From NCBI GenBank assembly GCA_963737065.1, contig CAVTRC010000001.1:256001-320000 (forward strand): 64,000 bases of DNA. Direction: 5' to 3'. Below the pieces are notes generated by a model. It was not told the origin of the DNA. It worked only from the letters and a program-made list of their open reading frames with translations, and made no database searches. Below are positions 1-26,110 of this stretch, one piece after another; within the stretch, counting starts at the first letter, position 1; each line of letters begins with the position of its first letter. The DNA is from Candidatus Eremiobacteria bacterium. Its GTDB lineage: Bacteria > Vulcanimicrobiota > Vulcanimicrobiia > Vulcanimicrobiales > Vulcanimicrobiaceae. Made by a program: the position numbers and the translations under genes.

Positions 1-617
1 ATCCGACGGCGATGAACATCGTCAAGCAATATCCGATGCAGATGCCGGACCTTGGTCTTTCGCAAAGCGACGTCACCGCCGTGCTTGCATATATCGCGCA
101 GCAATCAGGCGGCGGCGCGTCGTCAGCGGCCGCCGCTCCCGCGGTCAAATTTCCCGCGGGCGATGCCGAAGCCGGGCGCGAGCTCTTCGTCGGCAACAAA
201 CGGCTTCAGAACGGCGGGCCGCCATGCATGTCGTGCCACAGTATTTCCGGCATCGGCGCGCTCGGCGGGGGAACGCTCGGACCCGACCTCACCAACGTGT
301 TTACGACGCTTGGCGGTGAAGCGGGGACGGAGTCGTTTCTGAGCAGCGTGCCGACGCCGACGATGAGCGCCGTTTGGTCGAAGCACCCGCTGACGCCGCA
401 AGAGATCGCGAACCTCGTGGCTTTCATTAAAGAAGGCGAAGTTGCGCAGCGCTCTCCCGGAATTTTGGCGCAGCTGATCGTGCTTGCGATCATTGCTGCA
501 CTGATATTGGTCATCATTTTTGCAACGTATTGGCGGCGGCGGCTGCGCGGGGTTCGCATCCCGCTCGTCGCGCGCGCGAATGCGACGTTCCTCAGTAAAG
601 AACCTCGGAGGCTGTAA
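1..617 (+). CDS. Membrane-anchored c-type cytochrome (NarC-like), probably 5'-truncated by the window edge
   Basis: CxxCH (CMSCH) followed by GPDLT; C-terminal TM helix and WRRRLR; N-terminal MQMPDLGLSQSDV looks like the end of an earlier cytochrome c domain; frame is open to the window edge. Confidence 0.85.
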   Translation, partial: PTAMNIVKQYPMQMPDLGLSQSDVTAVLAYIAQQSGGGASSAAAAPAVKFPAGDAEAGRELFVGNKRLQNGGPPCMSCHSISGIGALGGGTLGPDLTNVFTTLGGEAGTESFLSSVPTPTMSAVWSKHPLTPQEIANLVAFIKEGEVAQRSPGILAQLIVLAIIAALILVIIFATYWRRRLRGVRIPLVARANATFLSKEPRRL

Positions 618-620
618 CCG

Positions 621-3600
621 ATGGGTTGGATTCAGGACTTAGTCGACCCGAAGTCTCGCCGCTGGGAAGAGTTTTACCGTAATCGCTGGATGCACGATCA
701 GATCGTGCGCAGCACGCACGGCGTAAATTGTACCGGTGGATGCTCGTGGGCCGTCTACGTGAAGGACGGCATCATCACGTGGGAGATGCAGCAGACGGAT
801 TATCCGCTGCTCGAAAAGGGGCTCCCACCGTACGAACCGCGCGGCTGCCAGCGCGGCATATCGGCTTCGTGGTACGTTTACAGCCCAATTCGCGTCAAGT
901 ATCCGTACATTCGCGGAGCGCTGCTGGATTTTTGGCGCAAAGCGAAGACGCAATACTCGAACCCCATCGAAGCCTGGGGATCGATCGTCGAAGACGACCA
1001 AAAGCGCAAACGGTATCAACGCGCACGCGGCAAAGGCGGCTACCGGCGGACGAACTGGGACGAGGTCCTCGAGCTGATCACCGCCTCATGTCTCTACACG
1101 GCGAAGAAATGGGGGCCGGACCGCATCTTCGGGTTCGCGCCGATTCCCGCGTTTTCGTTTGCGTCGTATGCCAGCGGTGCGCGCTTCCTGCAGCTCATCG
1201 GCGGCGTCAACATGAGCTTCTACGATTGGTACGCCGATCTCCCGAACGCGTTTCCGGAAGTCTGGGGCGACCAAACGGATGTCTGTGAAAGCGCCGACTG
1301 GTACAACTCGAGTTACATCGTCTCGATCGCGGCGAATTTAAACATGACGCGTACACCCGACGTGCACTTCATTTCCGAAGCGCGCACGAACGGGAGCAAA
1401 TTTGTCGTCATCTCGCCGGATTTCAATCAGGTCGCGAAGTACGCGGACAACTGGATTCCAATCAAAGCCGGCCAAGACACGGCGTTCTGGATGGCGGTCA
1501 ATCACGTCATCTTGAAAGAGTATCACCACGATCGCACGGTGCCGTACTTCGATCGCTACGTGAGGCAATACACTGATGCACCGTTCCTCGTCGAGGTGAC
1601 GGGAGACGCGACGTCGGGATACAAGGCCGGTCAGTTGCTGCGCGCGAATCGCGTCGCCCGCTACGCCGACGTAGAGAACGGCGAGTGGAAGATGCTGATG
1701 ATGGACGGGCAAACTAATGCGCCGAAAATGCCGATGGGCACGGTTGGCTTCCGCTGGCAGAAACAAAAAGGACAGTGGAACCTCAAACTCGAGGACGGCA
1801 TGGACGGCAGTCCGATCGATCCGGTCCTGACCTTCATCGATAAAAACGACGGCGTGGTCGACGTCGACTATTATGAGTTCGCATCGAAGACGATGAGCCG
1901 CCGCGGCGTTCCGGTCCGTTACATTGAAACAGCGAAGGGCCGCGTCCCCGTTGCGACGGTATTCGATCTTTACATGGCGCAGTATGGCGTGAACCGCGGG
2001 CTTTCGGGCGAGTACGCGGCAAGCTACGACGAGGTCGGACCGTACACGCCGGCGTGGCAAGAGCAATACACCGGAATCGGTCGCGAGACCGTGATTCGCT
2101 TCGCGCGCGAGTTCGCGACGAACGCTGAGCTCACGAACGGCCGCTCGATGTGCATCACCGGCGCGAGCCTCAATCACTGGTACAACAACGGCCTTGCCTA
2201 CCGGGGGCCGATCAATGCACTGCTCTTCACCGGGTGTTGCGGCGTGAACGGTGGCGGCATGAACCACTACGTCGGCCAAGAGAAGCTTGCGCCGGCCGCC
2301 CCGTGGGCCACGATTGCGTTTGCGCTCGACTGGCAGAAGCCGCCGAGGCGCGCGCAGTCGCCCGTCTGGCATTACGTGATGAGCGATCAGTGGCACTATG
2401 AGGGCGACTTCACCGAGTATGCGGCCGTTCCACCGGACGCGAAATACGCCAAAGGCCACTGCATGGACATCGAGCGCGATGCCGTTATGCGCGGATGGAT
2501 GCCGCACTATCCGCAACTCGAAGACAATCCGCTCGACACCGTACGCGAGGCGCAGGCGGCCGGCGCAACCGACGACGCCGCAATCATTCAGAACGTCGTC
2601 GATCGATTGAAGTCGGGCAAGCTGAAGTGGGCGATCGAAGATCCGGACGCGGAGCAAAATTGGCCGCGCGTTTGGTTCATATGGCGCGGCAACGCAATCA
2701 TGGCGAGCGCCAAAGGTCATGAGTTCTTTTTGCGTCACTACCTCGGCACGCACGATAATGCGATCGCCGAAGACCGCGCAAAAGGCCACGTGAAAAAGGT
2801 GACGTTCCGCGAGCCGGCGCCGCGGGGCAAGTTCGATTTAGTCGTCGACATCAACTTCCGGATGGATACGTCGGCGTTGTACTCGGATATCGTTCTGCCG
2901 ACGGCCATGTGGTACGAGAAGAACGATCTCAATACGACGGATCTTCACTCGTTCGTCCACGTGCTCGGCGCCGCCGTGCCGCCCGTTTGGGAATCGAAGA
3001 CCGATTGGGACATCTTCAAAGCGCTTGCGCGCAAGTTTAGCGAGCTCGCACCGCTTGCGTTCCCTGAACCGGTCAAGGACGTCGTGATGCAGCCGCTCAT
3101 GCACGACACGCCGGACGAGATCACACAGGCCGAAGTGCTCGATTGGACGGCCGGCGACTGCGAGCCGATCCCGGGCAAGACGATGCCGCATATGCGCGTC
3201 GTGACCCGCGACTACAGCCAGGTCTACAACAAATATATTACGCTCGGGCCGAATGTTCCAAAAGACGGGATGTCGTTCAACGGCGTACACGTACCGGCTG
3301 AGAAGTTCTACAATCAGCTTCTTCAGAATCCGGTTAGCCTTACGCCCGATTCGCGCCATATGCGTTGCGTTCAGTGGAACGGGCAAAAATATCCGAGCCT
3401 CGAGGACGCGCTCGACGTCTGCAATACGATCCTGCATCTTGCGCCGGAAACGAACGGCGACGTCTCATACGAGACGTTCGCTCACGAGGAAGAAGAAACG
3501 GGCGTCCCGCTCAAGGATCTCGCTGAAGGAGTCCGCGGGGTGCGCATGAACTTCGGCGATATCACGAGGCAGATCAAACGCTTGCTGATCAGTCCATGTT

Positions 3601-4268
3601 GGACCGGAATGATCAATGACGGTCGAGCGTATTCCGCGTGGTGCCTAAACGTCGAACGCTTGGTGCCATGGCGGACGGTTACCGGACGTTCGCAGCTCTA
3701 CATGGATCATCCGTGGTACATCGACTTCGGCGAGCACTTCGCAACGTACAAGCCGAAGCTCGATCCGCACAAGACCGGCGATATCGTGTTGAGTCCGGTT
3801 GATGACAAGTGCCTCATCCTGAACTACATCACCCCTCACGGAAAGTGGCACATCCATTCGACGTACTATGACAACCTCCGCATGCTGACGCTTTCGCGTG
3901 GGATGGAGCCGTGCTGGATCAACGACAAAGATGCCGCACGCATAGGAATCGTCGACAATCAATGGGTCGAGGTCTATAACGACAACGGCGTCATGGTGAC
4001 GCGCGCTGCGGTCAGCGCACGCGTGCAACCGGGAACGTGCATGATCTACCACGCACCCGACCGCACGATCTCCATGCCGAAATCACAGGTTCGCGGCGGA
4101 CGGCGCGCCGGCGGACACAACAGTCTCACGCGCACGCGGATGAATCCGCTTCAAATTGCCGGCGGGTACGGCCAATTCACGTATGGTTTCAATTACTGGG
4201 GGCCGATCGGGATTATGACCCGCGACACGTACGCCGTCGTGCGTGCGCTCAGTAAATTAGAATGGTAA
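621..4268 (+). CDS. narG: Nitrate reductase/nitrite oxidoreductase alpha subunit, NxrA-like (Nitrobacter/Nitrolancea-type clade)
   Basis: 1215 aa; FS0 motif HGVNCTGGC..C; Mo-ligand segment SFYDWYADLP; TPHGKWHIHSTY; no Tat signal. Confidence 0.97.
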   Translation: MGWIQDLVDPKSRRWEEFYRNRWMHDQIVRSTHGVNCTGGCSWAVYVKDGIITWEMQQTDYPLLEKGLPPYEPRGCQRGISASWYVYSPIRVKYPYIRGALLDFWRKAKTQYSNPIEAWGSIVEDDQKRKRYQRARGKGGYRRTNWDEVLELITASCLYTAKKWGPDRIFGFAPIPAFSFASYASGARFLQLIGGVNMSFYDWYADLPNAFPEVWGDQTDVCESADWYNSSYIVSIAANLNMTRTPDVHFISEARTNGSKFVVISPDFNQVAKYADNWIPIKAGQDTAFWMAVNHVILKEYHHDRTVPYFDRYVRQYTDAPFLVEVTGDATSGYKAGQLLRANRVARYADVENGEWKMLMMDGQTNAPKMPMGTVGFRWQKQKGQWNLKLEDGMDGSPIDPVLTFIDKNDGVVDVDYYEFASKTMSRRGVPVRYIETAKGRVPVATVFDLYMAQYGVNRGLSGEYAASYDEVGPYTPAWQEQYTGIGRETVIRFAREFATNAELTNGRSMCITGASLNHWYNNGLAYRGPINALLFTGCCGVNGGGMNHYVGQEKLAPAAPWATIAFALDWQKPPRRAQSPVWHYVMSDQWHYEGDFTEYAAVPPDAKYAKGHCMDIERDAVMRGWMPHYPQLEDNPLDTVREAQAAGATDDAAIIQNVVDRLKSGKLKWAIEDPDAEQNWPRVWFIWRGNAIMASAKGHEFFLRHYLGTHDNAIAEDRAKGHVKKVTFREPAPRGKFDLVVDINFRMDTSALYSDIVLPTAMWYEKNDLNTTDLHSFVHVLGAAVPPVWESKTDWDIFKALARKFSELAPLAFPEPVKDVVMQPLMHDTPDEITQAEVLDWTAGDCEPIPGKTMPHMRVVTRDYSQVYNKYITLGPNVPKDGMSFNGVHVPAEKFYNQLLQNPVSLTPDSRHMRCVQWNGQKYPSLEDALDVCNTILHLAPETNGDVSYETFAHEEEETGVPLKDLAEGVRGVRMNFGDITRQIKRLLISPCWTGMINDGRAYSAWCLNVERLVPWRTVTGRSQLYMDHPWYIDFGEHFATYKPKLDPHKTGDIVLSPVDDKCLILNYITPHGKWHIHSTYYDNLRMLTLSRGMEPCWINDKDAARIGIVDNQWVEVYNDNGVMVTRAAVSARVQPGTCMIYHAPDRTISMPKSQVRGGRRAGGHNSLTRTRMNPLQIAGGYGQFTYGFNYWGPIGIMTRDTYAVVRALSKLEW

Positions 4269-4297
4269 ACGGCGCTAAATTAGAATGGTAAACGGCG
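4253..4297 (+). repeat. 22-bp direct tandem repeat TAAATTAGAATGGTAAACGGCG (two copies, 1-bp spacer)
   Basis: Exact copies at 4253-4274 and 4276-4297, spanning the last codons and stop of the alpha subunit gene. Confidence 0.95.
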
Positions 4298-4326
4298 ATC
4301 GCAGGATCCACGGGAGTTCGTAAATT

Positions 4327-5832
4327 ATGGACATACGCGCACAAGTATCAATGGTTTTCCACCTCGACAAGTGTATCGGTTGCCACACGTGCAGCATCGC
4401 GTGCAAGAACATATGGACCGACCGTAAAGGCACCGAGTACATGTGGTGGAACAACGTCGAAACGAAGCCCGGTACGGGCTATCCCACCACATGGGAAGAT
4501 CAAAGCAAATATCGCGGCGGCTGGGTCAAAGACGGCGACCGTCTGCGGCTCAAATTGCAAGGCCGCGCCGAAGGATTGGGAAACATCTTCTTCAATCCGA
4601 ATCTGCCGACGATCGACGACTATTACGAGCCGTGGACGTATCAATACGACGAGCTCTTCAATGCGCCCGAAGGCGACGATCAGCCGACTGCCCGTCCCAT
4701 ATCGCTGATCACCGGCAAACCGATGGATATCGAGGCGGGGCCAAACTGGGACGATGATCTCGGCGGCTCGCCCGTCTATGCCAGCAACGACGTCAATCTC
4801 GACAAGCTGAGCGACAAGGAACGCGAGCAGCTCAACGAAGTCGAACGGCTCGTTTTCTTCTACCTTCCCCGCATCTGCAATCACTGCCTGAATCCGGCGT
4901 GCGTCGGCGCATGCCCGTCGGGAGCGATCTACAAGCGCGGCGAAGACGGCATCGTCCTGATCAGTCAGGAAAAATGCCGGGCGTGGCGCATGTGCATCTC
5001 CGGCTGTCCGTATAAGAAGACCTACTACAACTGGTCGACGGGAAAGTCCGAGAAGTGCATTCTGTGCTATCCGCGTCTCGAGACGGGACAAGCACCGGCA
5101 TGCTTCCATTCATGCGTCGGGCGCATCCGGTATCTCGGCTTGCTGCTTTACGATGCGGATCGCATTACCGAGGCTGCGCTCCACGACGACGCGGATCTCG
5201 TGTACGCGCAACGCGATATCATTCAGGATCCGTTCGATCCGGTCGTGATCGCCGCGGCGAAAGCAAACGGCGTCACGGATCTTCAGCTCGCTGCCGCGCA
5301 GAACTCCCCGGTCTACAAGTTCGTGAAGCGGTGGGGCCTCGCGCTGCCGCTGCATCCCGAATTCCGCACGATGCCGATGTTGTTCTACGTACCGCCGATG
5401 CTGCCGGTCCTCGGACGAATGAACGAAAGCGGCATCTACGATAACTCAGGCATCGAAGGCCTCGGACAAATGATCAGCTCGCTCGAACAAGCGCGCGTTC
5501 CGATCAAGTACATGGCCAGCCTATTCACCGCAGGAAACACGCAGATCGTGGAAGAGGTTTACCGCAAACAAATCGCCGTCCGCTTATACAAGCGCTCGCA
5601 GCGGGTGAAAGACATCAGCGCCGCTGAAGCGCAAGAAGCGATGCGTATCGGACGAACGACGCCGGAAGAGTGCGAGGCGATCTTCAATCTCACGTCGCTT
5701 CCCACGTTTGAAGAACGGTTCGTGATTCCCGCGATGGCTCGCGAAGAAGCGGTGGAACAGTTCCTCGATCCGTACACCCACAAACCGGCGGCCGGCTTCG
5801 GCTTCCGCGAGACGCCCGCACGCAGATGGTAG
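4327..5832 (+). CDS. narH: Nitrate reductase/nitrite oxidoreductase beta (Fe-S) subunit, NxrB-like
   Basis: CIGCHTCSIAC, CNHCLNPACVGAC, CRAWRMCISGC and CILC..CFHSC cluster motifs. Confidence 0.97.
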   Translation: MDIRAQVSMVFHLDKCIGCHTCSIACKNIWTDRKGTEYMWWNNVETKPGTGYPTTWEDQSKYRGGWVKDGDRLRLKLQGRAEGLGNIFFNPNLPTIDDYYEPWTYQYDELFNAPEGDDQPTARPISLITGKPMDIEAGPNWDDDLGGSPVYASNDVNLDKLSDKEREQLNEVERLVFFYLPRICNHCLNPACVGACPSGAIYKRGEDGIVLISQEKCRAWRMCISGCPYKKTYYNWSTGKSEKCILCYPRLETGQAPACFHSCVGRIRYLGLLLYDADRITEAALHDDADLVYAQRDIIQDPFDPVVIAAAKANGVTDLQLAAAQNSPVYKFVKRWGLALPLHPEFRTMPMLFYVPPMLPVLGRMNESGIYDNSGIEGLGQMISSLEQARVPIKYMASLFTAGNTQIVEEVYRKQIAVRLYKRSQRVKDISAAEAQEAMRIGRTTPEECEAIFNLTSLPTFEERFVIPAMAREEAVEQFLDPYTHKPAAGFGFRETPARRW

Positions 5833-5836
5833 GCGC

Positions 5837-6469
5837 ATGAGCATGACATCCCAAACGCGGATACTCGAGTTGTTCGCCGATCTTCTCGACTATCCGCGTC
5901 CGGATTTGGACATCCCGGCGGCAGCGCGTGAATGTCGCGCGCTCGTTGTTGAGGAAAGCCCCGACGCGGCCGCGATGTTGGACGAATTCATTGGGTTCGC
6001 AGAGCGGACGCCGCGAGACACGATTGAAGAAATCTTCTCTGCGACGTTCGACTTGAATGCATCGTGTCATCCGTACGTCGGATACCACATGTTCGGCGAA
6101 TCGTATCCACGCAGCTTGTTCATGTTGGAACTCAAGGAGCGCTTTCGGGGTCAGAATTTCGACCCCGGAATCGAACTGCCGGACCACATCGGAGTGCTGC
6201 TGCGATTCGCATCGGTATGCAACGACGATGCGTTGCGTGACGAAGTCATTCGGGACGCGGTACTTCCAACACTCGGGCCCATGACGCTTGCGCCGGAAAG
6301 CGCACCCGTACTCGACGAAGGCGAAGGTGCGGCGCCCGAAGTGTTCGACGTCGGAACCGATTACCGTCGCATCTTGCAGGCCCTGCAATTCGTATTACAA
6401 GCACGCTACGGTGCGCCGGCGAAGCTGAAGCCGGTGCCCGTTCCGGAGTCTGAGCGTCTGGTTTCCTAA
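5837..6469 (+). CDS. narJ: Molybdenum cofactor assembly chaperone
   Basis: LLDYP, TFDL, PYVGYHMFGESY, ELPDHI motifs; operon position. Confidence 0.92.
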   Translation: MSMTSQTRILELFADLLDYPRPDLDIPAAARECRALVVEESPDAAAMLDEFIGFAERTPRDTIEEIFSATFDLNASCHPYVGYHMFGESYPRSLFMLELKERFRGQNFDPGIELPDHIGVLLRFASVCNDDALRDEVIRDAVLPTLGPMTLAPESAPVLDEGEGAAPEVFDVGTDYRRILQALQFVLQARYGAPAKLKPVPVPESERLVS

Positions 6470-6496
6470 CGTTAGCAGAACGAGCGGAGGAACTTC

Positions 6497-7234
6497 ATGT
6501 CTGACACGTTTCTCTGGGACGTATGGCCCTACGTCGCCTTCGCAATCTTTATCTTCGGCGGGCTGTACCGCTACCTGAGAGATCGCTTCTCCTTCTCCAG
6601 CCAGTCGTCGCAATTCTTGGAGAATCGTTTCCTCTTTTGGGGATCGACGATGTGGCACTACGCGATCATTCTCATCTTGATTCCGCACACGCTCGGGTTT
6701 TTGTTCCCGCAAGCATGGGCGGCGCTCATCGAGAATCAGACGCGGCTTTACATCCTCGAGATCACCGGCCTCGCACTAGCCGTCATGGCGATCATCGGCC
6801 TCTTCACGTTGATCTTCCGGCGTTTATCGAGTCCGCGCATACAATTCGTCACCACGGGAATGGACTGGGTCCTGCTCGCATCCCTCGCGCTTCAAGTCGT
6901 CATGGGATTTTGGATCGCGTTCTTCTATCGCTGGGGCTCCGAGTGGTATCTGCATACATCCGTGCCGTGGCTGCGTTCGCTTGCCGCGTTCAACCCGCAA
7001 ATTCAATACGTTACCGCTATGCCGGTGCCGGTGAAGATTCACATGTTCAACGCGTTCGTGTTGCTTGCGCTCTTCCCGTTCACTCGCCTCGCGCACGTCG
7101 TAACGGCTCCGCTGTTCTATCTGATCAGACCGTATCAAGTCGTAATCTGGTATCGCCAGCGTAACCTTCCGTATGGTGCACCCGCCGGAAGCGAGCGCGT
7201 CGGCCCCGATGTACCGTATCTGCGACACGGCTGA
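6497..7234 (+). CDS. narI: Gamma subunit (membrane di-heme b cytochrome)
   Basis: SSQSSQFLE; four heme-ligand His residues (WHY, PHT, IHM, PFTRLAH); about 5 TM helices. Confidence 0.95.
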   Translation: MSDTFLWDVWPYVAFAIFIFGGLYRYLRDRFSFSSQSSQFLENRFLFWGSTMWHYAIILILIPHTLGFLFPQAWAALIENQTRLYILEITGLALAVMAIIGLFTLIFRRLSSPRIQFVTTGMDWVLLASLALQVVMGFWIAFFYRWGSEWYLHTSVPWLRSLAAFNPQIQYVTAMPVPVKIHMFNAFVLLALFPFTRLAHVVTAPLFYLIRPYQVVIWYRQRNLPYGAPAGSERVGPDVPYLRHG

Positions 7235-7256
7235 GGTTTAACGAGTCCGCCGAAGC

Positions 7257-7814
7257 ATGGCACGTGATGGCCGCGTCATGCCTGCGGCGGACGATCGATT
7301 GGAGCGGTTGTGTCAGATAAGCTCGACCGTCGCTGTTCCCGCGTTAATGGCCCTCTTGACGGCGACGCAGCACGAATTTCTTCAGCCTGCGACTGCGTTT
7401 TTGGTGCTGCCTCCGTTCGCCGTCGTCATTTATCTGCTTTTCCGAGACCCGTACGGCAAATGGGCGAATCTCCGATCGATCGTCGTTTTGCCGTGCCTGG
7501 GCGCAGTGATCGGTCAGTTGAGCTTCCACTTCTTCGGGCTCACGCCGCTCGGGATAGCGATCGATACACTTTGCGTAGTGGGTGCTCAAACGCTTTTGCG
7601 AGGACGCATGCCGCCGGCATTAGCGCTCTCGGTTCTTGCGATGCTGCTGCGCGTTCAGTCATTCACGTACACGCTCGGCGTAGCCGAAGCGTCGGTCTCG
7701 ATCGGAATCGTGTTCTTCGTGTGGCGGCGGATCTTGGTCGCGCCGCTTCTTCACACGTCCTCATATAGGATACATCCCCCTCAACGCGACGTCTTGCCGG
7801 AGGTTCGCCAATGA
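7257..7814 (+). CDS. HPP-family membrane protein (possible nitrite transporter)
   Basis: Hydrophobic; PPF..YLLFRDP segment and RMPPALA matching the HPP motif position. Confidence 0.65.
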   Translation: MARDGRVMPAADDRLERLCQISSTVAVPALMALLTATQHEFLQPATAFLVLPPFAVVIYLLFRDPYGKWANLRSIVVLPCLGAVIGQLSFHFFGLTPLGIAIDTLCVVGAQTLLRGRMPPALALSVLAMLLRVQSFTYTLGVAEASVSIGIVFFVWRRILVAPLLHTSSYRIHPPQRDVLPEVRQ

Positions 7815-8755
7815 GCTCGAGTACAGACACAAACGCGTCTCTGTTAGCGGCACCATCAATATCGGCGCTAGCGGATTCAGGAAAAGACGCAGGCACGTAT
7901 GACGGAATTGCTGCGTTAGATTTCGTTAAGCCGCCGCAGTTATTGCGAACGATCATCGAAACGGGCGCGTCGAAAGGGGATTTGCCGATCATCAAAATCC
8001 TCGTGCGCGGCATGTTCGGCGGTGCGTTTCTCGCGTACGGTACCGCGATGGCGTTTTTCGGGATTGCGCAGGGGCTGCCGCCGATTGTGGCCGACGCGCT
8101 CTTCCCGCTGGGATTCATCGTCATCAACCTCTTACAGGTCGATCTCGCGACCGGCTATTTCGCCTACGTGCCGGTCGCGTACATGAACGGACGCATTACG
8201 TTCGCAAAGATGGCGCGCGCAATCTTCTGGGTGTACGTCGCCAATCTGATCGGCAGTCTGATCGTGGTGGCCTTGCTGTGGCTCGCGCTCACGATGTCCG
8301 GACAGGCGCCCGATACAACCGGAATTTCAGCGGTTCTCGTCAAGGTGGGAACGTCAAAAACGCTGCACTACGCGCAGTTCGGCATGGCGGGCGTATTCAC
8401 GGCATTCATCAAAGGGATCTTATGCAACTGGTTCGTGACGCTCGGCGTTGTGCTTCCCTTCACGACGCGATCGGTGATCGGTAAAGCGATCGCGACGTTC
8501 GTCCCAATTTACATGTTCTTCGGCATGGGCTGGGAACACTTAGTCGTCAATATGTTCATCATTCCGTCGGCGATGGCATATGGCGCGCATATCACGCTCG
8601 CCGATTGGTGGATCGGAAATGAACTGCCGGTAACGATCGGCAACTTCGTCGGAGGCTTCCTTTTCACCGGAGCGGCGATCGGCTTCATCTACGGCGTACG
8701 TGATAAATCGGCAACGAGCAATCCGCGCGGTGTAACTCCTGCTGCCGTTCGATGA
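7811..8755 (+). CDS. Formate/nitrite transporter (FNT, NirC/FocA family)
   Basis: LFPLG, KGILCNWFV, GWEHLVVNMF, PVTIGNFVGG motifs; ATGA overlap with the HPP gene. Confidence 0.92.
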   Translation: MSSSTDTNASLLAAPSISALADSGKDAGTYDGIAALDFVKPPQLLRTIIETGASKGDLPIIKILVRGMFGGAFLAYGTAMAFFGIAQGLPPIVADALFPLGFIVINLLQVDLATGYFAYVPVAYMNGRITFAKMARAIFWVYVANLIGSLIVVALLWLALTMSGQAPDTTGISAVLVKVGTSKTLHYAQFGMAGVFTAFIKGILCNWFVTLGVVLPFTTRSVIGKAIATFVPIYMFFGMGWEHLVVNMFIIPSAMAYGAHITLADWWIGNELPVTIGNFVGGFLFTGAAIGFIYGVRDKSATSNPRGVTPAAVR

Positions 8756-9315
8756 GCGAGAGCGCCGGCGAAGGCGTTCGTGATCCATCGCTCGGTGACG
8801 AAGAAGCGTATCGGCTGTGCACGGAGTTGGTTTCGCTCGGCGAATTGAGGGCTGCAGTCGACTACATGCGACGCAAGGTGAACCGCGCGCGCAAGTCGAT
8901 GCCGGCAGATTCCCGGATGCATCTCCGCCTGCTCTCACAGTACGCCGCCATATTAGAGCTCACGGAAACGTACGGTGAGGCAGAGTTTCTTCGCGCGAAG
9001 GCCGTTGAAATCGTAGAAACCGGAACGGTCTCCGCCGAAGACGCGCTTGACGCGTATCTCACGTATGGGCTTCTTCTCACGCGGAACCGCAACTACAACG
9101 CCGCGCTGGCGCCGCTGAAGGAAGCCCTACGCCGAGCCGAAACGGTCGAAGCGATTGCACCCGTCGAGCAGCAAATTGCGCTCGCAAAGGCCTGGAGAGC
9201 GTTGCAACAGGCATACGAAGGGCTCGGCGAGCTCTCGCAAGCGTCGGACGCCTTGGACGCACTCGACAACATCAAACGGCTCATCCGTTATCTAGTCTTC
9301 TCAATGTCGAGGTAA
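8752..9315 (+). CDS. TPR-like helical protein
   Basis: TPR-like pattern (AYLTYGLLL..NYNAALAPLKEAL); ATGA overlap with the FNT gene. Confidence 0.6.
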   Translation: MSESAGEGVRDPSLGDEEAYRLCTELVSLGELRAAVDYMRRKVNRARKSMPADSRMHLRLLSQYAAILELTETYGEAEFLRAKAVEIVETGTVSAEDALDAYLTYGLLLTRNRNYNAALAPLKEALRRAETVEAIAPVEQQIALAKAWRALQQAYEGLGELSQASDALDALDNIKRLIRYLVFSMSR

Positions 9316-9323
9316 CACCCAGC

Positions 9324-9653
9324 ATGTATATCGTCAACGGCAAGCCGGCGTGTCTGTTGATCACCGAAAATCTCTCCCGCGCGCATGCCGACGGCGAACG
9401 GCATTTCTATCCGGCGCTCGTCAAGGCGTTCGAACCAGGATATGAAGCAACCGATTGGGACTACGGTGCCGACTATCCCGAGGCGCAGCAACGCGTGGAA
9501 GCCTTCAACGCCGAACACGGCGTGAATAAGGACGCGGCGCTACTGATCGTCACCTCGTCGATGTTTCCTTCTGCACCGATTTCCACAGCGGATATCTACC
9601 GCGCGAACCTCGAGGAGTATGCAGACGATTCGAGTCAAAAGACGCCGGGATAA
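9324..9653 (+). CDS. Hypothetical protein
   Basis: 109-aa ORF with GAGGT upstream. Confidence 0.6.
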   Translation: MYIVNGKPACLLITENLSRAHADGERHFYPALVKAFEPGYEATDWDYGADYPEAQQRVEAFNAEHGVNKDAALLIVTSSMFPSAPISTADIYRANLEEYADDSSQKTPG

Positions 9654-10171
9654 TGGGAGCGCAGTGATTGCTTGAGCTGCATATCGCCAAGTCGATCGAT
9701 GGCGTCGAGAATCGTCTGCTGCGCGTGTTCCGCACCGTGTTCGGCGAGCCACTGCAACGCGCTGTTGACGCCCGAAGCAGCGGCGCGCTCTGCCGCAATG
9801 TCCTCGACGAGTTCATGCGCGCGCGTTTTGACCGCATCGGTCCAGCGTTCGACTTCCGCCTGTTCCGAAAGCGTACGTTTGATTCGCGACATCTCAGCCG
9901 CTCTCCACGGATACGGATTGCCGCACTGAAAGCAGTACGGATGGTACGGAACCCACTTCAGCATCTCCCCATCAGCGGGCAGCGGTGCGCGGCAGCCGGG
10001 ACACGCAACGATCACGTCGGCGCCGCATTTCGCGCAATGTTTCGGGACGAGCGGCGCTTCGGTGAACCACGCATAGACGTGGCCGTTCGTGCAGACGGCT
10101 GCGCACGGCCCGTGCCGTTCGGCCGCTAGCGCGGGCAGTTCGATCGGTTCAACTGGTCTATCGTTGGACAT
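9635..10171 (-). CDS. DUF2321-like zinc-ribbon protein
   Basis: CTNGH, CAKCG, CPGC, YCFQCGNPYPW motifs. Confidence 0.75.
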   Translation of the reverse strand: MSNDRPVEPIELPALAAERHGPCAAVCTNGHVYAWFTEAPLVPKHCAKCGADVIVACPGCRAPLPADGEMLKWVPYHPYCFQCGNPYPWRAAEMSRIKRTLSEQAEVERWTDAVKTRAHELVEDIAAERAAASGVNSALQWLAEHGAEHAQQTILDAIDRLGDMQLKQSLRSHYPGVF

Positions 10172-10646
10172 GGAAACATATTCGATACACGCACGTCGTC
10201 TGCTTTCGGAACAGATGTGGCTCGCGCTCTCCACCGTCGATGACGCCGGATTACCGATGGTAAGCTATACGCCGTTCGCCGCCGTTGCGGGCGCACTCGG
10301 CATCGTCGTGAGCAGGCTCGCTGCGCATAGCGCGCCCTTGCACGCGCGGCGTCCAGCTGCCGTACTCGTCGTCGAGACGCACACGCAAGCAGGCGATGCC
10401 TATATGCGCGCTCGGTTGTCGATCGCGGTCACCGTATCGCCGCTCGCAGCCGATTCCGAGCATGCCGTCGCCATTTGGTCCGCACTGGAGCAACGCCAGG
10501 GGGAGACTGTACGCACGCTTCGCATGCTTCCCGATTTCGATGCAATTCGTTTGGAGCCGAAGGAAGGCCGCCTCGTTCTCGGTTTTGCTTCGGCCCACAA
10601 CCTCAGCGGCCCGCAGATTGCAGCGGTTTTGGAAACCGGCGTCTGA
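10170..10646 (+). CDS. Pyridoxamine 5'-phosphate oxidase/HugZ-like split-barrel protein
   Basis: LSTVDDAGLPMVSYTPF, SRLAAH, RARLS, LPDF, GRLVLGFASA. Confidence 0.8.
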   Translation: METYSIHARRLLSEQMWLALSTVDDAGLPMVSYTPFAAVAGALGIVVSRLAAHSAPLHARRPAAVLVVETHTQAGDAYMRARLSIAVTVSPLAADSEHAVAIWSALEQRQGETVRTLRMLPDFDAIRLEPKEGRLVLGFASAHNLSGPQIAAVLETGV

Positions 10647-10662
10647 ACGCGCTTGCGGAGGT

Positions 10663-10668
10663 TATAAT
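10663..10668 (+). promoter_or_regulatory. Consensus -10 box for a probable leaderless transcript
   Basis: TATAAT 6 nt upstream of the ATG at 10675. Confidence 0.55.
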
Positions 10669-10674
10669 TACCCT

Positions 10675-11250
10675 ATGAGACGGCGCGTCTCCGACCGTTT
10701 GGGACCCAACGTTGCGCGACGACCGTGGACGCGTGCTGAGCGCCGCGTCGTGCTGCGCGGCTTTTGGGGCCGTCTGACGATCGCGATCGAGCCGCTCATC
10801 GTTGCAATATTCTTCGCATTGCTTCCGATCGGCATGATGCTGCGGCGACAAGAAGCCACGTTGCTGCTCGCTCCGATCTTCGGACTTGCATCGATTTCGT
10901 TCCTGATCTATGCCGTCGTGCTCATTGCGCCGTCCGCGCGCGCACTGTTCGAGACGTTCAATCCTATCTACACGGTCGACGGCTACATTCGGTATCGCTT
11001 CAAGGACGGCGAACCGATCTACTATGTGGCAGCGCTCGACGCCGAGCATCTGATCCTCGGTGAATGGCCACTCGCCCAATGGCCGCCCTCGATCAAAGAA
11101 CGAGAACTGTGGCCGGTTGTCGTGGAATTCAGTCCGTACGGCGGTATTCACAAAATCGACGGTCATCCGACGGGCGTCCTTCCAACGGAAATCGCGCCGT
11201 TCGGCATCGGCATCGCAGACGAAGACAAGCGCCGGCGCAAACTCGGCTAA
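10675..11250 (+). CDS. Hypothetical membrane protein (2 TM)
   Basis: Two hydrophobic helices followed by a soluble domain. Confidence 0.7.
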   Translation: MRRRVSDRLGPNVARRPWTRAERRVVLRGFWGRLTIAIEPLIVAIFFALLPIGMMLRRQEATLLLAPIFGLASISFLIYAVVLIAPSARALFETFNPIYTVDGYIRYRFKDGEPIYYVAALDAEHLILGEWPLAQWPPSIKERELWPVVVEFSPYGGIHKIDGHPTGVLPTEIAPFGIGIADEDKRRRKLG

Positions 11251-19346: not shown

Positions 19347-19479
19347 AACTATTCACCCCTCTGCGGAAGCTAATTTACCCTGTCGCTGCGCGTCCCTTCG
19401 CGATCTTTCAGCGGAAACTAAGAATATTCGAGTGGGAACCGCTGCGGAACCGCTGCGTAACTAGCATGTAATCGGTCCG

Positions 19480-22960: not shown

Positions 22961-22996
22961 CCGCCGTGGAACCGCTCCGCGTATCGTTAAACGGGC

Positions 22997-25939: not shown

Positions 25940-26110
25940 GTGCTGGGCTATTGTGTGATCTGTCAAACCAAGTGCGAGCTGCGCGACCTCAAGCAAATTC
26001 AACGCAGTGGCTTACCGGCCGTTGAGGGCACCTGTACGGCCTGCGGCACGAAAACATTCCTTCTCGGCGCCGAAGTACCGACGCCGGAGGATGCGCCTAG
26101 CCCAGAATGA
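25940..26110 (+). CDS. Small zinc-ribbon protein (DUF5679-like)
   Basis: YCVIC..GTCTACGTKTF; GGAG upstream of a GTG. Confidence 0.7.
   Translation: MLGYCVICQTKCELRDLKQIQRSGLPAVEGTCTACGTKTFLLGAEVPTPEDAPSPE

What the first reader, a model, noticed from the sequence alone, without database searches (positions are those of the whole stretch)
1..9653. NXR-clade (Nitrobacter/Nitrolancea-type) molybdoenzyme operon in an apparently unexpected host: candidate nitrite-oxidation system
Seen: a tightly packed operon of cytochrome c, alpha, beta, narJ, narI, HPP, FNT and TPR genes. The alpha subunit reads [51 protein letters not shown] and ends KLEW; the beta subunit starts MDIRAQVSMVFHLDKCIGCHTCSIACKNIW. 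From my recollection of reference proteins, these match Nitrobacter-type NxrA/NxrB. They differ from E. coli-type NarG (CTGSC, DLPPASPQTWGEQTDVPES). There is no Tat signal, so the active site faces the cytoplasm. Inference: the flanking housekeeping genes do not look alphaproteobacterial and may be Eremiobacterota-like, so this could be a new nitrite-oxidiser lineage or a horizontally acquired NXR-clade enzyme. Caveat: these enzymes are reversible and the clade includes nitrate reducers, so direction cannot be read from sequence.
Basis: partly seen in the sequence, partly recalled or inferred. Interest (0 to 1): 0.9.

Follow-up and report, generated by a model that had tools for sequence, protein, structure and literature searches.

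The report
Cytochrome-c nitrate reductase linked to oxidase
An uncultured soil bacterium of the phylum Eremiobacterota carries a membrane nitrate/nitrite enzyme of the broad family that also holds the nitrite-oxidising enzyme of Nitrobacter; it most likely breathes nitrate, but it is inherited with, and seems to share a control element with, its own oxygen-reducing oxidase.

Summary
The operon is real: dihaem cytochrome c, alpha, beta, NarJ, NarI, HPP, FNT, TPR-like and orf109 genes. The quoted motifs are there, but they mark a large cytochrome-c-linked (NarC-type) clade. That clade also holds the nitrate reducers Thermus and Methanoperedens.

The host is Eremiobacterota. Its enzyme forms its own clade and is not sister to Nitrobacter NxrA. 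At all 14 positions in NarI, beta, cytochrome c and NarJ where the Nitrobacter branch has lost an otherwise conserved residue, Eremiobacterota keep it. One is the NarI arginine that aligns with E. coli K86.

The new result concerns linkage and control. In 13 of 14 operon-bearing Eremiobacterota genomes the operon co-occurs with a diverged caa3 oxidase cluster. A SARP-type direct repeat (CGGAACC-N4-CGGAACC) lies upstream of the operon in 15 of 15 loci and upstream of the oxidase in 12 of 12 genomes. In this genome the only two near-exact copies are those two.

Best reading, 0.55: a quinol-dependent, Thermus-type nitrate reductase inside a GAF-SARP-controlled respiratory island. Nitrite oxidation to oxygen stays open at about 0.3.

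The parts
1..617 (+). 3' part of the NarC-like dihaem cytochrome c gene, first gene of the core operon. The whole gene is L167:11772-12617 (G000:C1:255772-256617), 281 aa.
   Evidence: Pfam Cytochrom_C, two stretches. CAACH and CMSCH motifs and a C-terminal membrane helix are visible in the translation. 51% identical over 245 aa to the cytochrome c upstream of N. vulgaris nxrA. 31% identical, E 6e-23, to the Thermus c-type cytochrome upstream of narG.
621..4268 (+). Alpha (catalytic molybdopterin) subunit, NarG/NxrA type, 1215 aa.
   Evidence: TIGR01580 1442 bits over a cut-off of 1084. Full-length alignment to E. coli NarG structures. Trees.
4327..5832 (+). Beta (iron-sulfur) subunit, NarH/NxrB type, 501 aa.
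   Evidence: TIGR01660 643 bits over a cut-off of 524. Tree.
5837..6469 (+). NarJ-type assembly chaperone, 210 aa.
   Evidence: Pfam Nitrate_red_del 28 bits, cut-off 22. TIGR00684 44.6 bits, below its cut-off of 59.
6497..7234 (+). NarI-type dihaem b membrane subunit, 245 aa. R83 aligns with E. coli NarI K86.
   Evidence: Pfam Nitrate_red_gam 225 bits and TIGR00351 138 bits over a cut-off of 106. Alignments.
7257..7814 (+). HPP-family membrane protein.
   Evidence: Pfam TM_HPP 31.9 bits, cut-off 27.2. Found downstream of narI only in Eremiobacterota loci. That HPP proteins transport nitrite is recalled, not tested here.
7811..8755 (+). Formate/nitrite transporter (FNT) family channel.
   Evidence: Pfam Form_Nir_trans 192 bits. 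Below the NCBIfam cut-offs for FocA and NirC.
8752..9315 (+). TPR-like ORF of unknown role, 187 aa.
   Evidence: Only sub-threshold TPR hits. Conserved at 40-87% in Eremiobacterota loci.
9324..9653 (+). orf109, a conserved small protein of unknown role.
   Evidence: No Pfam or NCBIfam match. 71-82% identical across Eremiobacterota loci. No informative ESM Atlas hit, best score 0.76.
9635..10234 (-). DUF2321 protein at the conserved end of the cluster.
   Evidence: Pfam DUF2321 57 bits. Found next to orf109 in 12 Eremiobacterota loci.
10396..11250 (+). orf284, a conserved companion of Eremiobacterota caa3 clusters.
   Evidence: No family match. 61-83% identical in the operon-linked oxidase loci. 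39-45% identical next to COX3 in 10 common-type oxidase loci.
15833..16477 (-). Cytochrome c oxidase subunit III.
   Evidence: Pfam COX3 86 bits.
16481..18223 (-). Cytochrome c oxidase subunit I, the operon-linked type.
   Evidence: Pfam COX1 513 bits. TIGR02891 642 bits, just under its cut-off of 671. Distribution.
18231..19346 (-). Cytochrome c oxidase subunit II with a fused C-terminal cytochrome c domain (caa3 type).
   Evidence: Pfam COX2, COX2_TM and Cytochrome_CBB3/Cytochrom_C at residues 277-371. TIGR02866 CoxB 151.5 bits over a cut-off of 147.7.
19434..19462 (+). Three tandem heptamers at an 11-bp period (GGGAACC, CGGAACC, CGTAACT), 88-116 bp upstream of the COX2 start and inverted relative to that gene. 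Operator-like.
   Evidence: Together with the site upstream of the operon, this is one of only two sites in the genome within 1 mismatch of the repeat. Equivalent sites lie upstream of COX2 in the 11 other genomes examined.
22956..22973 (+). A third copy of the repeat (CGTAACC-N4-TGGAACC), about 290 bp upstream of ctaA.
   Evidence: It ranks among the top five weight-matrix sites in the genome. The same 18-mer occurs in G003.
23260..24195 (+). Haem A synthase (CtaA/COX15).
   Evidence: Pfam COX15-CtaA 105 bits.
26097..27128 (-). SCO1/SenC copper chaperone for oxidase assembly.
   Evidence: Pfam SCO1-SenC 65 bits.
27505..28698 (+). NarK-family nitrate/nitrite MFS transporter, about 18 kb from the operon.
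   Evidence: TIGR00886 is the best hit at 222 bits, below its subfamily cut-off of 312. 43-46% identical to MFS genes beside nar operons in L003, L012, L013, L020 and L163.

Best explanation
The operon encodes a four-subunit, cytoplasm-facing, membrane-bound nitrate/nitrite oxidoreductase of the Thermus NarC type. It comprises a dihaem cytochrome c, NarG, NarH and NarI, with NarJ as chaperone. In Eremiobacterota it belongs to a conserved respiratory island that also carries two nitrite channels (HPP, FNT), Moco genes, its own diverged caa3 cytochrome c oxidase cluster with ctaA, and a GAF-SARP regulator.

Most likely working (inferred):
- When oxygen is limiting, quinol is oxidised at NarI.
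- Electrons pass through the NarI haems and the NarH clusters to the molybdenum site of NarG, where nitrate is reduced to nitrite in the cytoplasm.
- Nitrite leaves through FNT and HPP.
- The GAF-SARP protein binds the 11-bp-spaced CGGAACC repeats. It switches the nitrate reductase and the linked oxidase, either in opposite senses or together.
- The periplasmic NarC haems give the complex a second electron door towards the cytochrome c domain of the caa3 oxidase.

Shown: gene content, clade membership, co-inheritance with the oxidase, the shared repeat, and retention of the ancestral residues. Inferred: direction of catalysis, regulator-repeat binding, the sign of regulation, and electron transfer between NarC and caa3.
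For: 1. Family scores lie above the curated NarG, NarH and NarI cut-offs, and alpha aligns end to end with E. coli NarG structures.

2. In the trees, Thermus NarG from the narC operon is basal in the clade. Methanoperedens is sister (99*) to the crown group, which holds the Eremiobacterota clade (100*). Nitrobacter is nested deep in another sub-clade. Thermus NarCGHI is an experimentally studied nitrate reductase (PMC7694296, passages). Methanoperedens is described as nitrate-dependent (PMC6094997, passage).

3. The NarI residue aligned with E. coli K86 is:
- R in 13 of 13 Eremiobacterota sequences;
- R in 26 of 28 other crown sequences;
- R in 23 of 26 deeper NarC-type sequences, Thermus included;
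- A, T or V in 8 of 8 named Nitrobacter, 16 of 16 alphaproteobacterial MAGs and 3 of 3 Burkholderiales MAGs.
The role of K86 in quinol binding is recalled, not tested.

4. Fourteen columns in NarI, beta, cytochrome c and NarJ are conserved at 85% or more elsewhere but lost on the Nitrobacter branch. The Eremiobacterota majority keeps the conserved residue at all 14.

5. Of 24 alpha columns specific to the Nitrobacter group, Eremiobacterota share 1. Control tip clades share 0-4.

6. The upstream regulator has GAF, winged-helix and BTAD domains. It is 30-31% identical in two regions to the Thermus GAF protein encoded upstream of narC. The review calls that protein DnrS, the oxygen-sensitive activator needed for nar transcription. 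Such a regulator is conserved in all Eremiobacterota loci and was not found in the Nitrobacter loci.

7. A NarK-family transporter lies in the island, and an FDH-N-type formate dehydrogenase is present.

8. The genome holds two cytochrome b genes, a second haem-copper oxidase and a bd oxidase, so the host looks like a facultative aerobe.

9. The shared operator-like repeat is documented. The SARP domain matches AfsR and EmbR structures.
Against: - A nitrate reductase has no obvious need for its own co-inherited cytochrome c oxidase. Yet the operon-linked COX1 type occurs, by identity or position, in 13 of 14 operon-bearing Eremiobacterota genomes. In the 38 other relatives searched the best identity is 71% or less.
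- Named Nitrobacter loci also carry COX1 and COX3 about 5 kb from nxrA, in 11 of 25 loci. Only 2 of 69 other non-Eremiobacterota loci have a COX1 gene within their flanks, and both of those are 98-99% Nitrobacter-like.
- SARP proteins are generally activators (recalled), so the shared repeat could mean co-expression with an oxygen reductase.
- The cytochrome c is closer to the Nitrobacter one (51%) than to Thermus NarC (31%).
- The operon carries nitrite channels rather than NarK.
- No NirK above cut-off, NirS or NrfA was found in this 95%-complete genome.
- The genome has form I RuBisCO with CbbX and PRK but no [NiFe] hydrogenase, reaction centre or form I CO dehydrogenase.
- Direction was not measured, and the enzyme family is reversible.
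Confidence: 0.55

Rival explanations
1. Nitrobacter-like nitrite oxidation. Nitrite enters through FNT and HPP and is oxidised at the cytoplasmic alpha subunit. Electrons run through beta and NarI to the periplasmic NarC-like cytochrome c, and from there to the cytochrome c domain of the co-regulated caa3 oxidase and on to oxygen. The GAF-SARP protein activates both operons and ctaA. The enzyme may still run backwards under anoxia, as reported for Nitrolancea (PMC3504966, passage).
For: - Co-inheritance and physical linkage of the operon with a diverged caa3 cluster. The two lie on the same contig in 11 of 14 genomes, and the oxidase sits on either side of the operon, 1-14 kb away.
- COX1 identity runs against taxonomy: 96% in G003 and 82% in another genus (G016), but 62-65% in the five other genomes of the same genus.
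- The repeat lies upstream of the operon in 15 of 15 loci, upstream of COX2 in 12 of 12 genomes, and upstream of ctaA in this genome. It is absent next to 9 common-type oxidase loci.
- Nitrobacter shows a parallel arrangement of cox next to nxr. The Thermus review describes this same electron path for Nitrobacter.
- The cytochrome c is 51% identical to that of N. vulgaris.
- Form I RuBisCO occurs in 8 of 14 operon-bearing genomes, against 7 of 38 others. Related genomes are not independent observations.
- This genome lacks hydrogenase, reaction centre, CO dehydrogenase and nitrite reductases.
Against: - The enzyme is not sister to Nitrobacter NxrA.
- None of the 14 substitutions derived on the Nitrobacter branch is shared, including the loss of the NarI arginine.
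- The regulator is DnrS-like, and no such gene was found in the Nitrobacter loci.
- There is no FKBP-type gene between alpha and beta.
- RuBisCO is missing from 6 of the 14 operon-bearing genomes, and PRK of this genome is split over two frames.
- FDH-N offers another electron donor for autotrophy.
- One regulator acting on both an oxidase and a nitrate reductase operon is also usual in oxygen/nitrate switches. Thermus DnrT represses the bc1 promoter, and E. coli FNR acts this way (recalled).
- In 10 of 13 genomes the linked caa3 is the only copy of that oxidase type, so it may simply be the cell's general oxidase.
Confidence: 0.3
2. Electron-branching complex. NarI and NarC act as a quinol:cytochrome c oxidoreductase that feeds the linked caa3 oxidase when nitrate is scarce, alongside nitrate reduction. 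This is what the Thermus review proposes for NarC feeding the nitrite and NO reductases. It can coexist with the best explanation.
For: [quoted passage not shown]
- This genome has no periplasmic nitrite, NO or N2O reductase candidates for NarC to serve. A cytochrome c oxidase is therefore the only evident acceptor.
- The NarI arginine is retained.
- Earlier notes of this scan found NarC-type operons fused to ACIII or bc-type complexes in other phyla. Those notes are unchecked leads.
Against: - The genome already has two cytochrome b (bc-type) genes, one next to the second oxidase, so a bypass is not obviously needed.
- There is no direct evidence that NarC and caa3 interact. No complex prediction was run.
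Confidence: 0.1
3. The linkage with the oxidase and the shared repeat reflect neighbourhood and common descent only, with no functional coupling.
For: - The operon-linked oxidase cluster has the same architecture as the standard Eremiobacterota caa3 cluster: COX2c, COX1, COX3, orf284, then ctaA.
- The operon-bearing genomes are related, so the counts are not independent.
- A genome of this size is expected to hold about 2 near-exact repeat sites by chance. Mononucleotide shuffles gave 0, 1 and 0 per 500 kb.
Against: - The repeat falls in the two promoter-like intergenic regions in every genome examined (15 of 15 and 12 of 12). The flanking sequence, the orientation and the side of the operon on which the oxidase lies all vary.
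- The background rate is 1.16 hits per 100 kb in 1.89 Mb of control loci.
- The two other high-scoring sites in this genome lie inside genes.
Confidence: 0.05

Closest known systems
Thermus thermophilus NarCGHJI(KT) nitrate reductase of the nitrate respiration conjugative element, with the dnrST regulators
   Same: - The gene order is the same: dihaem membrane-anchored cytochrome c, then alpha, beta, NarJ and NarI.
- Thermus NarG is 59% identical to the window's alpha subunit.
- The cytochrome c is homologous (31% identity, E 6e-23).
- A GAF-plus-BTAD regulator is encoded upstream (30-31% identity).
- The conserved NarI arginine is kept.
- The enzyme sits in a mobile or island-like respiratory cluster with its own regulators (PMC7694296).
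   Different: - Thermus has NarK/NarT transporters in the operon, a CRP-type DnrT and DUF2249 proteins next to it.
- The window has HPP and FNT channels, TPR-like, orf109 and DUF2321 genes, and a linked caa3 oxidase that shares an operator-like repeat.
- Thermus reads CTGSCSW where the window reads CTGGCSW.
Nitrobacter nitrite oxidoreductase cluster (cytochrome c, nxrA, FKBP-type nxrX, nxrB, narJ-like, narI-like) with aa3 oxidase genes nearby
   Same: - Both belong to the same crown clade: alpha 67-68% identical, beta 69%, cytochrome c 47-53%.
- Both read CTGGCSW and ...GDQTDVCES.
- Both alpha subunits are cytoplasmic-type and lack an N-terminal extension.
- Both have cytochrome c oxidase genes within a few kb.
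   Different: - The window's enzyme is not a sister group of Nitrobacter NxrA.
- There is no FKBP-type gene between alpha and beta: the gap is 58 bp, against a 234-aa ORF in N. vulgaris.
- Nitrobacter has lost the NarI arginine and 13 other conserved residues that the window keeps.
- No GAF-SARP regulator was found in the Nitrobacter loci.
- Nitrobacter has NarK directly after narI.
Candidatus Methanoperedens NarGH-type nitrate reductase locus (L019, L021)
   Same: - Alpha is 71% identical to the window's.
- The active-site-region motif [16 protein letters not shown] is identical.
- A cytochrome c gene lies upstream.
- It is sister to the crown group that holds the window.
   Different: - The host is archaeal.
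- NarI has H, not R, at the column aligned with E. coli K86.
- There are no HPP or FNT genes and no caa3 oxidase. If the contig mapping is right, a 758-760-aa PF00115 protein lies near the operon. That mapping is unverified.
E. coli NarGHJI (structures 1Q16, 1R27)
   Same: The subunit set is the same, and alpha aligns over its full length at 1206 bits. The FS0 motif HxxxCxxxC and the aspartate-containing TDV.ES segment are conserved in the alignment.
   Different: - Alpha is only 45% identical.
- E. coli has no cytochrome c subunit.
- E. coli NarG carries a roughly 20-residue N-terminal extension.
- E. coli has narK upstream and NarXL control.

Membership tests
Membrane-bound respiratory nitrate reductase NarGHI (type II DMSO reductase family) | The catalytic, iron-sulfur and dihaem b subunits score above the curated equivalog cut-offs. 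| tested here: met
   narG 1442 bits against 1084, narH 643 against 524, narI 138 against 106.
Membrane-bound respiratory nitrate reductase NarGHI (type II DMSO reductase family) | A NarJ-type chaperone is encoded between beta and gamma. | tested here: met
   Pfam Nitrate_red_del is above its cut-off. The TIGR00684 score is below its cut-off, at 44.6 against 59. Position is as in E. coli and Thermus.
Membrane-bound respiratory nitrate reductase NarGHI (type II DMSO reductase family) | Quinol-dependent reduction of nitrate to nitrite. | not testable with these tools
   The only hint is sequence-based: NarI R83 aligns with E. coli K86 and is conserved outside the Nitrobacter branch. The role of K86 is recalled.
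NarC-type (Thermus-type) heterotetrameric nitrate reductase | A membrane-anchored periplasmic dihaem cytochrome c is encoded as the first gene of the operon. | tested here: met
   281 aa with two CxxCH motifs and a C-terminal membrane helix. Homologous to the Thermus protein.
NarC-type (Thermus-type) heterotetrameric nitrate reductase | Alpha and beta group with Thermus NarG and NarH, apart from the E. coli type. | tested here: met
   A 100* branch separates the cytochrome-c-linked clade from the canonical NarG outgroup in three trees.
NarC-type (Thermus-type) heterotetrameric nitrate reductase | [quoted passage not shown] | not testable with these tools
   Known for Thermus from PMC7694296 passages.
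Nitrobacter/Nitrococcus/Nitrolancea-type cytoplasmic nitrite oxidoreductase (NXR) | Alpha and beta fall inside the branch made by NxrA and NxrB of known nitrite oxidisers. | tested here: not met
   The Eremiobacterota clade (100*) lies outside the branch that holds Nitrobacter, which has several starred nodes. Nitrococcus and Nitrolancea sequences could not be obtained, so only Nitrobacter was tested. The AU test did not finish.
Nitrobacter/Nitrococcus/Nitrolancea-type cytoplasmic nitrite oxidoreductase (NXR) | Substitutions derived on the Nitrobacter branch at otherwise conserved positions of NarI, beta, cytochrome c and NarJ. | tested here: not met
   The Eremiobacterota consensus shares 0 of 14. 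At the NarI arginine column, Eremiobacterota have R in 13 of 13, against 0 of 27 on the Nitrobacter branch. That these positions define function is my inference.
Nitrobacter/Nitrococcus/Nitrolancea-type cytoplasmic nitrite oxidoreductase (NXR) | An FKBP-type nxrX gene lies between nxrA and nxrB (Nitrobacter gene order). | tested here: not met
   The alpha-beta gap in the window is 58 bp. N. vulgaris has a 234-aa FKBP_C ORF there.
Nitrobacter/Nitrococcus/Nitrolancea-type cytoplasmic nitrite oxidoreductase (NXR) | A route from the enzyme to a terminal cytochrome c oxidase (cytochrome c plus an aa3-type oxidase). | tested here: met
   A NarC-like cytochrome c and a linked caa3 cluster with a shared upstream repeat are present. 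Electron transfer itself was not tested.
Nitrobacter/Nitrococcus/Nitrolancea-type cytoplasmic nitrite oxidoreductase (NXR) | Aerobic growth or energy gain from oxidising nitrite to nitrate. | not testable with these tools
   No culture exists, and no sequencing run was listed.
SARP-family transcription activators | A winged-helix domain plus a BTAD domain, with target sites made of direct heptamer repeats at an 11-bp period. | tested here: inconclusive
   The domains are present, and the protein matches AfsR and EmbR structures. Conserved 7-bp repeats at an 11-bp period lie next to the gene. Binding was not tested. That SARPs use such repeats is recalled.

The most novel reading that the evidence does not exclude
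A lineage of Eremiobacterota (Vulcanimicrobiaceae) performs facultative aerobic nitrite oxidation. A NarC-type enzyme passes electrons from cytoplasmic nitrite oxidation through its own dihaem cytochrome c to a dedicated, co-regulated caa3 oxidase. This would be a second, independent recruitment of this enzyme clade for nitrification, outside the Nitrobacter branch and without its sequence signatures, in a phylum abundant in acidic and peat soils.
Probability: 0.3. Interest if true: 0.9.

Novelty: new variant of a known kind. Interest (0 to 1): 0.55.

Why it matters
- **Limits of gene-based calls.** The sequence motifs, and even an exact match to the Nitrobacter nxrA primer F1norA, are spread over many phyla. 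The primer hit 38 stretches of genome DNA, and only 12 are titled Nitrobacter. Reading nitrite oxidation from such signatures can therefore mislead.
- **A candidate marker.** Loss of a conserved NarI arginine and of 13 other residues marks the Nitrobacter branch. This could help separate nitrite-oxidising from nitrate-reducing members of the clade, once Nitrococcus and Nitrolancea have been checked.
- **A testable unit.** The Eremiobacterota island couples a nitrate/nitrite enzyme, its regulator and a private cytochrome c oxidase through one DNA repeat. That makes an open question testable: what is the extra cytochrome c of NarC-type enzymes for?
- **The high-stakes outcome.** If the unit runs towards oxygen, a widespread soil phylum would join the nitrifiers.

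Tried and rejected
1. **Nitrolancea and Nitrococcus sequences.** The search for related loci with N. vulgaris NxrA returned neither. A protein search with the Thermomicrobiaceae alpha (L143) listed no Nitrolancea among its 120 rows. The Nitrolancea paper says that nxrA lies fragmented at contig ends in the genome assembly, so I ran no further search on it. The trees therefore test only Nitrobacter among known oxidisers.
2. **AU test.** The test of Eremiobacterota plus the Nitrobacter branch as one clade did not finish in three 300-s calls. No result.
3. **Sequencing runs.** None was listed, and no RNA holder was listed.
4. **Convergence with Nitrobacter in alpha.** Eremiobacterota share 1 of 24 Nitrobacter-specific columns, against 0-4 in control tip clades. 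No alpha column separates the Nitrobacter branch from the rest. Alpha is uninformative on direction.
5. **Recent horizontal transfer judged by composition.** Operon GC is 58.5% against 60.5% for the genome (5th percentile). Tetranucleotide distance falls in the top 9%. The deviation is mild and not diagnostic.
6. **Other regulon members.** The two further high-scoring weight-matrix sites lie inside a peptide deformylase gene and a beta-lactamase-family gene, so I treat them as chance. The matrix was trained on sites that included this genome's own operon and COX sites, so only the ctaA site is an independent hit.
7. **orf109.** There are no family hits, and the best ESM Atlas score is 0.76, with viral and bacterial hypothetical clusters. 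Uninformative.
8. **GAF domain.** No PDB sequence match.
9. **Oxidase linkage in 14 other genomes.**
   - Clear cases: the nearest COX1 is more than 1.4 Mb away on the 10.4-Mb Ardenticatenaceae contig, and two alphaproteobacterial MAGs on the Nitrobacter side have COX1 3-10 kb past the locus.
   - The remaining hits could not be assigned to the contig that holds the locus.
   - The 9-kb flanks would also have missed the oxidase in the Eremiobacterota loci themselves (0 of 13). The contrast with other phyla is therefore weaker than it looks.
10. **Earlier print.** Searches for Eremiobacterota with 'nitrite oxidoreductase', 'narG' or 'nitrate reduction' listed no paper that claims nitrite oxidation or an oxidase link. 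I saw only listings and the passages cited. The main Eremiobacterota genomics paper was not held and may describe nitrogen genes. Supplements were not read.
11. **Complex or structure prediction.** Not run. Transient electron-transfer contacts are poor targets, and the report does not claim binding.

Full report
**1. Observation**

The window is G000:C1:256001-320000 of a 3.08-Mb, two-contig genome, 95% complete. Nine co-directional, tightly spaced genes fill positions 1-9653.
- A c-type cytochrome, cut by the window edge.
- Alpha: TIGR01580 narG 1442 bits, cut-off 1084.
- Beta: TIGR01660 narH 643 bits, cut-off 524.
- NarJ and NarI.
- An HPP protein and an FNT channel.
- A weak TPR-like ORF and orf109.

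The E. coli counterparts it recalled are correct when read from the K-12 record. Upstream DNA from the genome shows the whole cytochrome: 281 aa, two CxxCH motifs and a C-terminal membrane helix. Before it come a GAF, winged-helix and BTAD regulator, a conserved orf180, and MoaA. Alpha aligns over its full length with solved E. coli NarG and only remotely with the periplasmic anammox NXR.

**2. Host**

The closest alpha proteins, at 80-87% identity, come from contigs titled Eremiobacteraeota, Vulcanimicrobiaceae, WPS-2 or Candidatus Zemynaea. Genes outside the operon are syntenic with those contigs at 59-82% identity: DAO, AhpC, orf107, a metallo-beta-lactamase and MoaA. Three loci titled Limnocylindria(les) sit inside this clade with the same synteny, so I take those titles as labelling or binning problems.

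Of 41 related genomes, 5 have a NarG above cut-off, and these belong to three different lineages:
- this type, in G000, G003 and G016;
- a deeper cytochrome-c-linked type, in G025;
- a canonical E. coli type, in G027.

The tallies include genomes G014 and G036. Those include G041 and G046. Loci L001, L008 and L009 belong to the latter two. The tool flags all of these as unpublished.

**3. Where the enzyme belongs**

I obtained Nitrobacter loci with the published primer F1norA (PMC12542910, passage; scan). Further relatives came from N. vulgaris NxrA. Thermus, Bacillus, Mesorhizobium and E. coli operons came from annotated records.

The identity ladder for alpha is:

| Group | Identity to the window's alpha |
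|---|---|
| Eremiobacterota | 80-94% |
| Chloroflexota, Acidobacteriota, Gemmatimonadota and other MAGs | 69-76% |
| Methanoperedens | 71% |
| Nitrobacter | 67-68% |
| Thermus | 59% |
| E. coli type | 45-48% |

Three trees give the same picture. They are FastTree on 88 alpha sequences, IQ-TREE LG+C20 (quick search) on 50 alpha sequences, and FastTree on 75 beta sequences.
- A long 100* branch separates canonical NarG from a large clade in which a homologous cytochrome c gene precedes alpha.
- Thermus is basal in that clade.
- Methanoperedens is sister (99*) to a crown group.
- The Eremiobacterota form their own 100* clade in the crown.
- Nitrobacter is nested deep in another part of it, with Burkholderiales, Thermomicrobiaceae and Dehalococcoidia sequences as successive neighbours.

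Methanoperedens shares [16 protein letters not shown] exactly, while Nitrobacter differs at two residues. An AU test of Eremiobacterota plus the Nitrobacter branch as one clade did not finish. Nitrococcus and Nitrolancea could not be included.

**4. Sequence signatures of direction**

- In alpha, no column separates the Nitrobacter branch from a residue conserved elsewhere. Of 24 columns specific to the Nitrobacter group, the Eremiobacterota share 1, no more than control tip clades do.
- In the other subunits, 14 columns are conserved at 85% or more elsewhere but lost on the Nitrobacter branch: NarI 4, beta 8, cytochrome c 1, NarJ 1. The Eremiobacterota majority keeps the conserved residue at all 14.
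- The clearest case is the NarI residue aligned with E. coli K86:
  - R in 13 of 13 Eremiobacterota;
  - R in 26 of 28 other crown sequences, the two H being Methanoperedens;
  - R in 23 of 26 deeper sequences, Thermus included;
  - A, T or V in all 27 sequences of the Nitrobacter, alphaproteobacterial and Burkholderiales branch.

From memory, K86 helps bind and oxidise quinol at the distal haem. If so, the Nitrobacter branch has given up quinol chemistry and the Eremiobacterota have not. This is inference and needs the other known oxidisers.

**5. The island**

Six kb past orf109 lies a caa3 oxidase cluster: COX2 with a fused cytochrome c domain, COX1 and COX3. Further on come ctaA, SCO1 and a NarK-family transporter.

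*Co-occurrence.*
- The window's COX1 has close counterparts only in G003 (96%) and G016 (82%). Those are the two other relatives with this operon.
- The best identity in the other 38 relatives is 71% or less. That includes the five other genomes of the same genus, at 62-65%.
- In 11 further operon-bearing Eremiobacterota genomes the type is present at 81-86% in 8 and in split form in 1 (G044).
- In 1 more (G045) it is present by position only, with six in-frame TGA codons and 65-78% identity. It is missing from 1 (G041, 68%).
- The oxidase lies on the operon's contig in 11 of 14 genomes, on either side of the operon, 1-14 kb away.

*Origin.* Its architecture matches the standard Eremiobacterota caa3 cluster, and its nearest relatives are other Eremiobacterota oxidases at 60-66%. 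The best outside the phylum is 51% or less. It is therefore a diverged copy from within the phylum that travels with the operon. In 10 of 13 genomes it is the only copy of that oxidase type.

*Comparison with other groups.* Nitrobacter loci also hold COX1 and COX3 about 5 kb from nxrA, in 11 of 25 loci. Only 2 of 69 other loci do, and both are Nitrobacter-like. That comparison is limited by the 9-kb flanks, and a wider look at 14 genomes gave few clear cases.

**6. A shared operator-like repeat**

Between the regulator and the cytochrome c gene lies CGGAACC-N4-CGGAACC, 80-97 bp before the start codon.

| Location | Frequency | Details |
|---|---|---|
| Upstream of the operon | 15 of 15 Eremiobacterota operon loci | Same orientation, at most 1 mismatch; exact matches in 11 of the 169 loci held at that point, all Eremiobacterota |
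| Upstream of the linked COX2 gene | 12 of 12 genomes | 0-2 mismatches, often three copies, 30-420 bp before the gene; same orientation in 7, inverted in 5 (this genome is inverted, window 19434-19462) |
| Upstream of ctaA | this genome; the same 18-mer also occurs in G003 | About 290 bp upstream of the gene in this genome |
| Upstream of the NarK-like gene | two loci | |
| Upstream of the regulator gene | one locus | |

In the whole G000 genome only two sites lie within one mismatch, and they are the operon site and the COX site. Two other high-scoring weight-matrix sites are intragenic.

Controls:
- 1.16 hits per 100 kb in 145 other loci covering 1.89 Mb.
- No hit next to 9 common-type Eremiobacterota oxidase clusters.

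The C-terminal part of the regulator matches the SARP proteins AfsR and EmbR. Two regions of it are 30-31% identical to the Thermus GAF protein upstream of narC. The review names that protein DnrS, the oxygen-sensitive activator of the nar operon (PMC7694296, passages). No such regulator was found in the Nitrobacter loci.

**7. Rest of the genome**

G000 has the following:
- form I RuBisCO with CbbX, a CbbR-like regulator and a PRK split over two frames, which may be an assembly error;
- an FDH-N-type formate dehydrogenase;
- two cytochrome b genes, a second haem-copper oxidase and a bd oxidase;
- a NirA/Sir-type reductase.

None of the following was found: [NiFe] hydrogenase, photosynthetic reaction centre, form I CO dehydrogenase, NirK above cut-off, NirS, or NrfA. 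Form I RuBisCO occurs in 8 of 14 operon-bearing genomes and in 7 of 38 others. Related genomes are not independent observations.

**8. Reading**

The enzyme is a NarC-type member of the NarGHI family. That part is secure.

*For nitrate reduction:*
- the phylogenetic position among lineages whose characterised members (Thermus, Methanoperedens) reduce nitrate;
- the retained NarI arginine and the other 13 ancestral residues;
- the DnrS-like regulator;
- the NarK-type transporter and the formate dehydrogenase.

*For nitrite oxidation:*
- the private, co-inherited oxidase that seems to share a control element with the operon;
- the parallel arrangement in Nitrobacter;
- the Nitrobacter-like cytochrome c;
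- nitrite channels in the operon;
- RuBisCO without hydrogenase.

A shared operator does not settle the matter. Regulators of oxygen/nitrate switches commonly activate a nitrate reductase and repress an oxidase or complex III. Thermus DnrT does so, and E. coli FNR does so (recalled). I put 0.55 on nitrate respiration within a regulated island, 0.30 on physiological nitrite oxidation, 0.10 on an electron-branching role as the main point, and 0.05 on linkage without function.

**9. Known or new**

- NarC-type operons are common and were met repeatedly in this scan on other DNA, sometimes fused to ACIII or bc-type complexes (unchecked notes).
- narG/nxrA-type genes have been listed in Eremiobacterota MAGs (PMC9455692, passages).
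- The similarity between the Thermus and Nitrobacter clusters is in print.
- I found no paper, in the listings, that describes the oxidase linkage, the shared repeat or the NarI signature. The main Eremiobacterota genomics paper was not available.

I rate the finding a new variant of a known kind.

Noticed in passing
NarI, window 6497-7234 (R83); loci L001-L166: The NarI arginine that aligns with E. coli K86 is conserved across the NarC-type clade but replaced by A, T or V in all 27 sequences of the Nitrobacter, alphaproteobacterial-MAG and Burkholderiales-MAG branch. It may be a sequence marker for the nitrite-oxidising lineage. It also hints that those Burkholderiales and Xanthobacteraceae MAGs share the Nitrobacter-type state.
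   Followed up: partly
Genome-contig loci L067-L104: The 'Nitrobacter-specific' nxrA forward primer F1norA matches 38 stretches exactly, of which only 12 are titled Nitrobacter. The rest include Flavobacteriales, Saprospiraceae, Anaerolineales, Burkholderiales, Planctomycetaceae, Calditrichaceae and one Eremiobacterota MAG. The window itself has no match within 3 mismatches. The reverse primer was not checked.
   Followed up: partly
window 47655-48602 (+): A 315-aa regulator fuses DUF2249, a cyclic-nucleotide-binding domain and a Crp-type HTH. In Thermus, separate DUF2249 proteins lie just after the nar operon and a Crp/Fnr regulator lies before it.
   Followed up: no
G000:C1:751994-752621 (L168:11566-12900): The phosphoribulokinase match is split over two reading frames in G000 but intact in G003. 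This is either a frameshift or a long-read assembly error. Several related MAG loci also show split alpha or beta ORFs.
   Followed up: no
G000:C1:1330070-1332691 (L169:3070-5691): The ORF for the FDH-N-type formate dehydrogenase alpha subunit begins at model position 202. That pattern would fit an upstream in-frame selenocysteine codon, which was not checked. The gene occurs in all six same-genus genomes, as 877-aa frames.
   Followed up: no
L012, L183, L184: Contigs titled Candidatus Limnocylindria(les), a Chloroflexota group, carry the Eremiobacterota-type operon, oxidase, flanking synteny and repeat. The taxon labels or the binning look wrong.
   Followed up: no
L138 (G063), L097 (G062): Two alphaproteobacterial MAGs have alpha subunits 82-83% identical to Nitrobacter NxrA. 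Each has two COX1 genes 3-10 kb beyond the nxr-like locus.
   Followed up: no
L019, L021 (Methanoperedens): A 758-760-aa PF00115 protein maps inside the coordinate range of the nar locus, if the contig is the same. Its length suggests a quinol-type NO reductase. The contig identity was not verified.
   Followed up: no
L010:6316-8018 and equivalent regions of L001, L002, L004, L012: In some Eremiobacterota the repeat is followed by MobB-like and MoeA genes before the cytochrome c gene. There the operon starts with Moco biosynthesis genes.
   Followed up: partly
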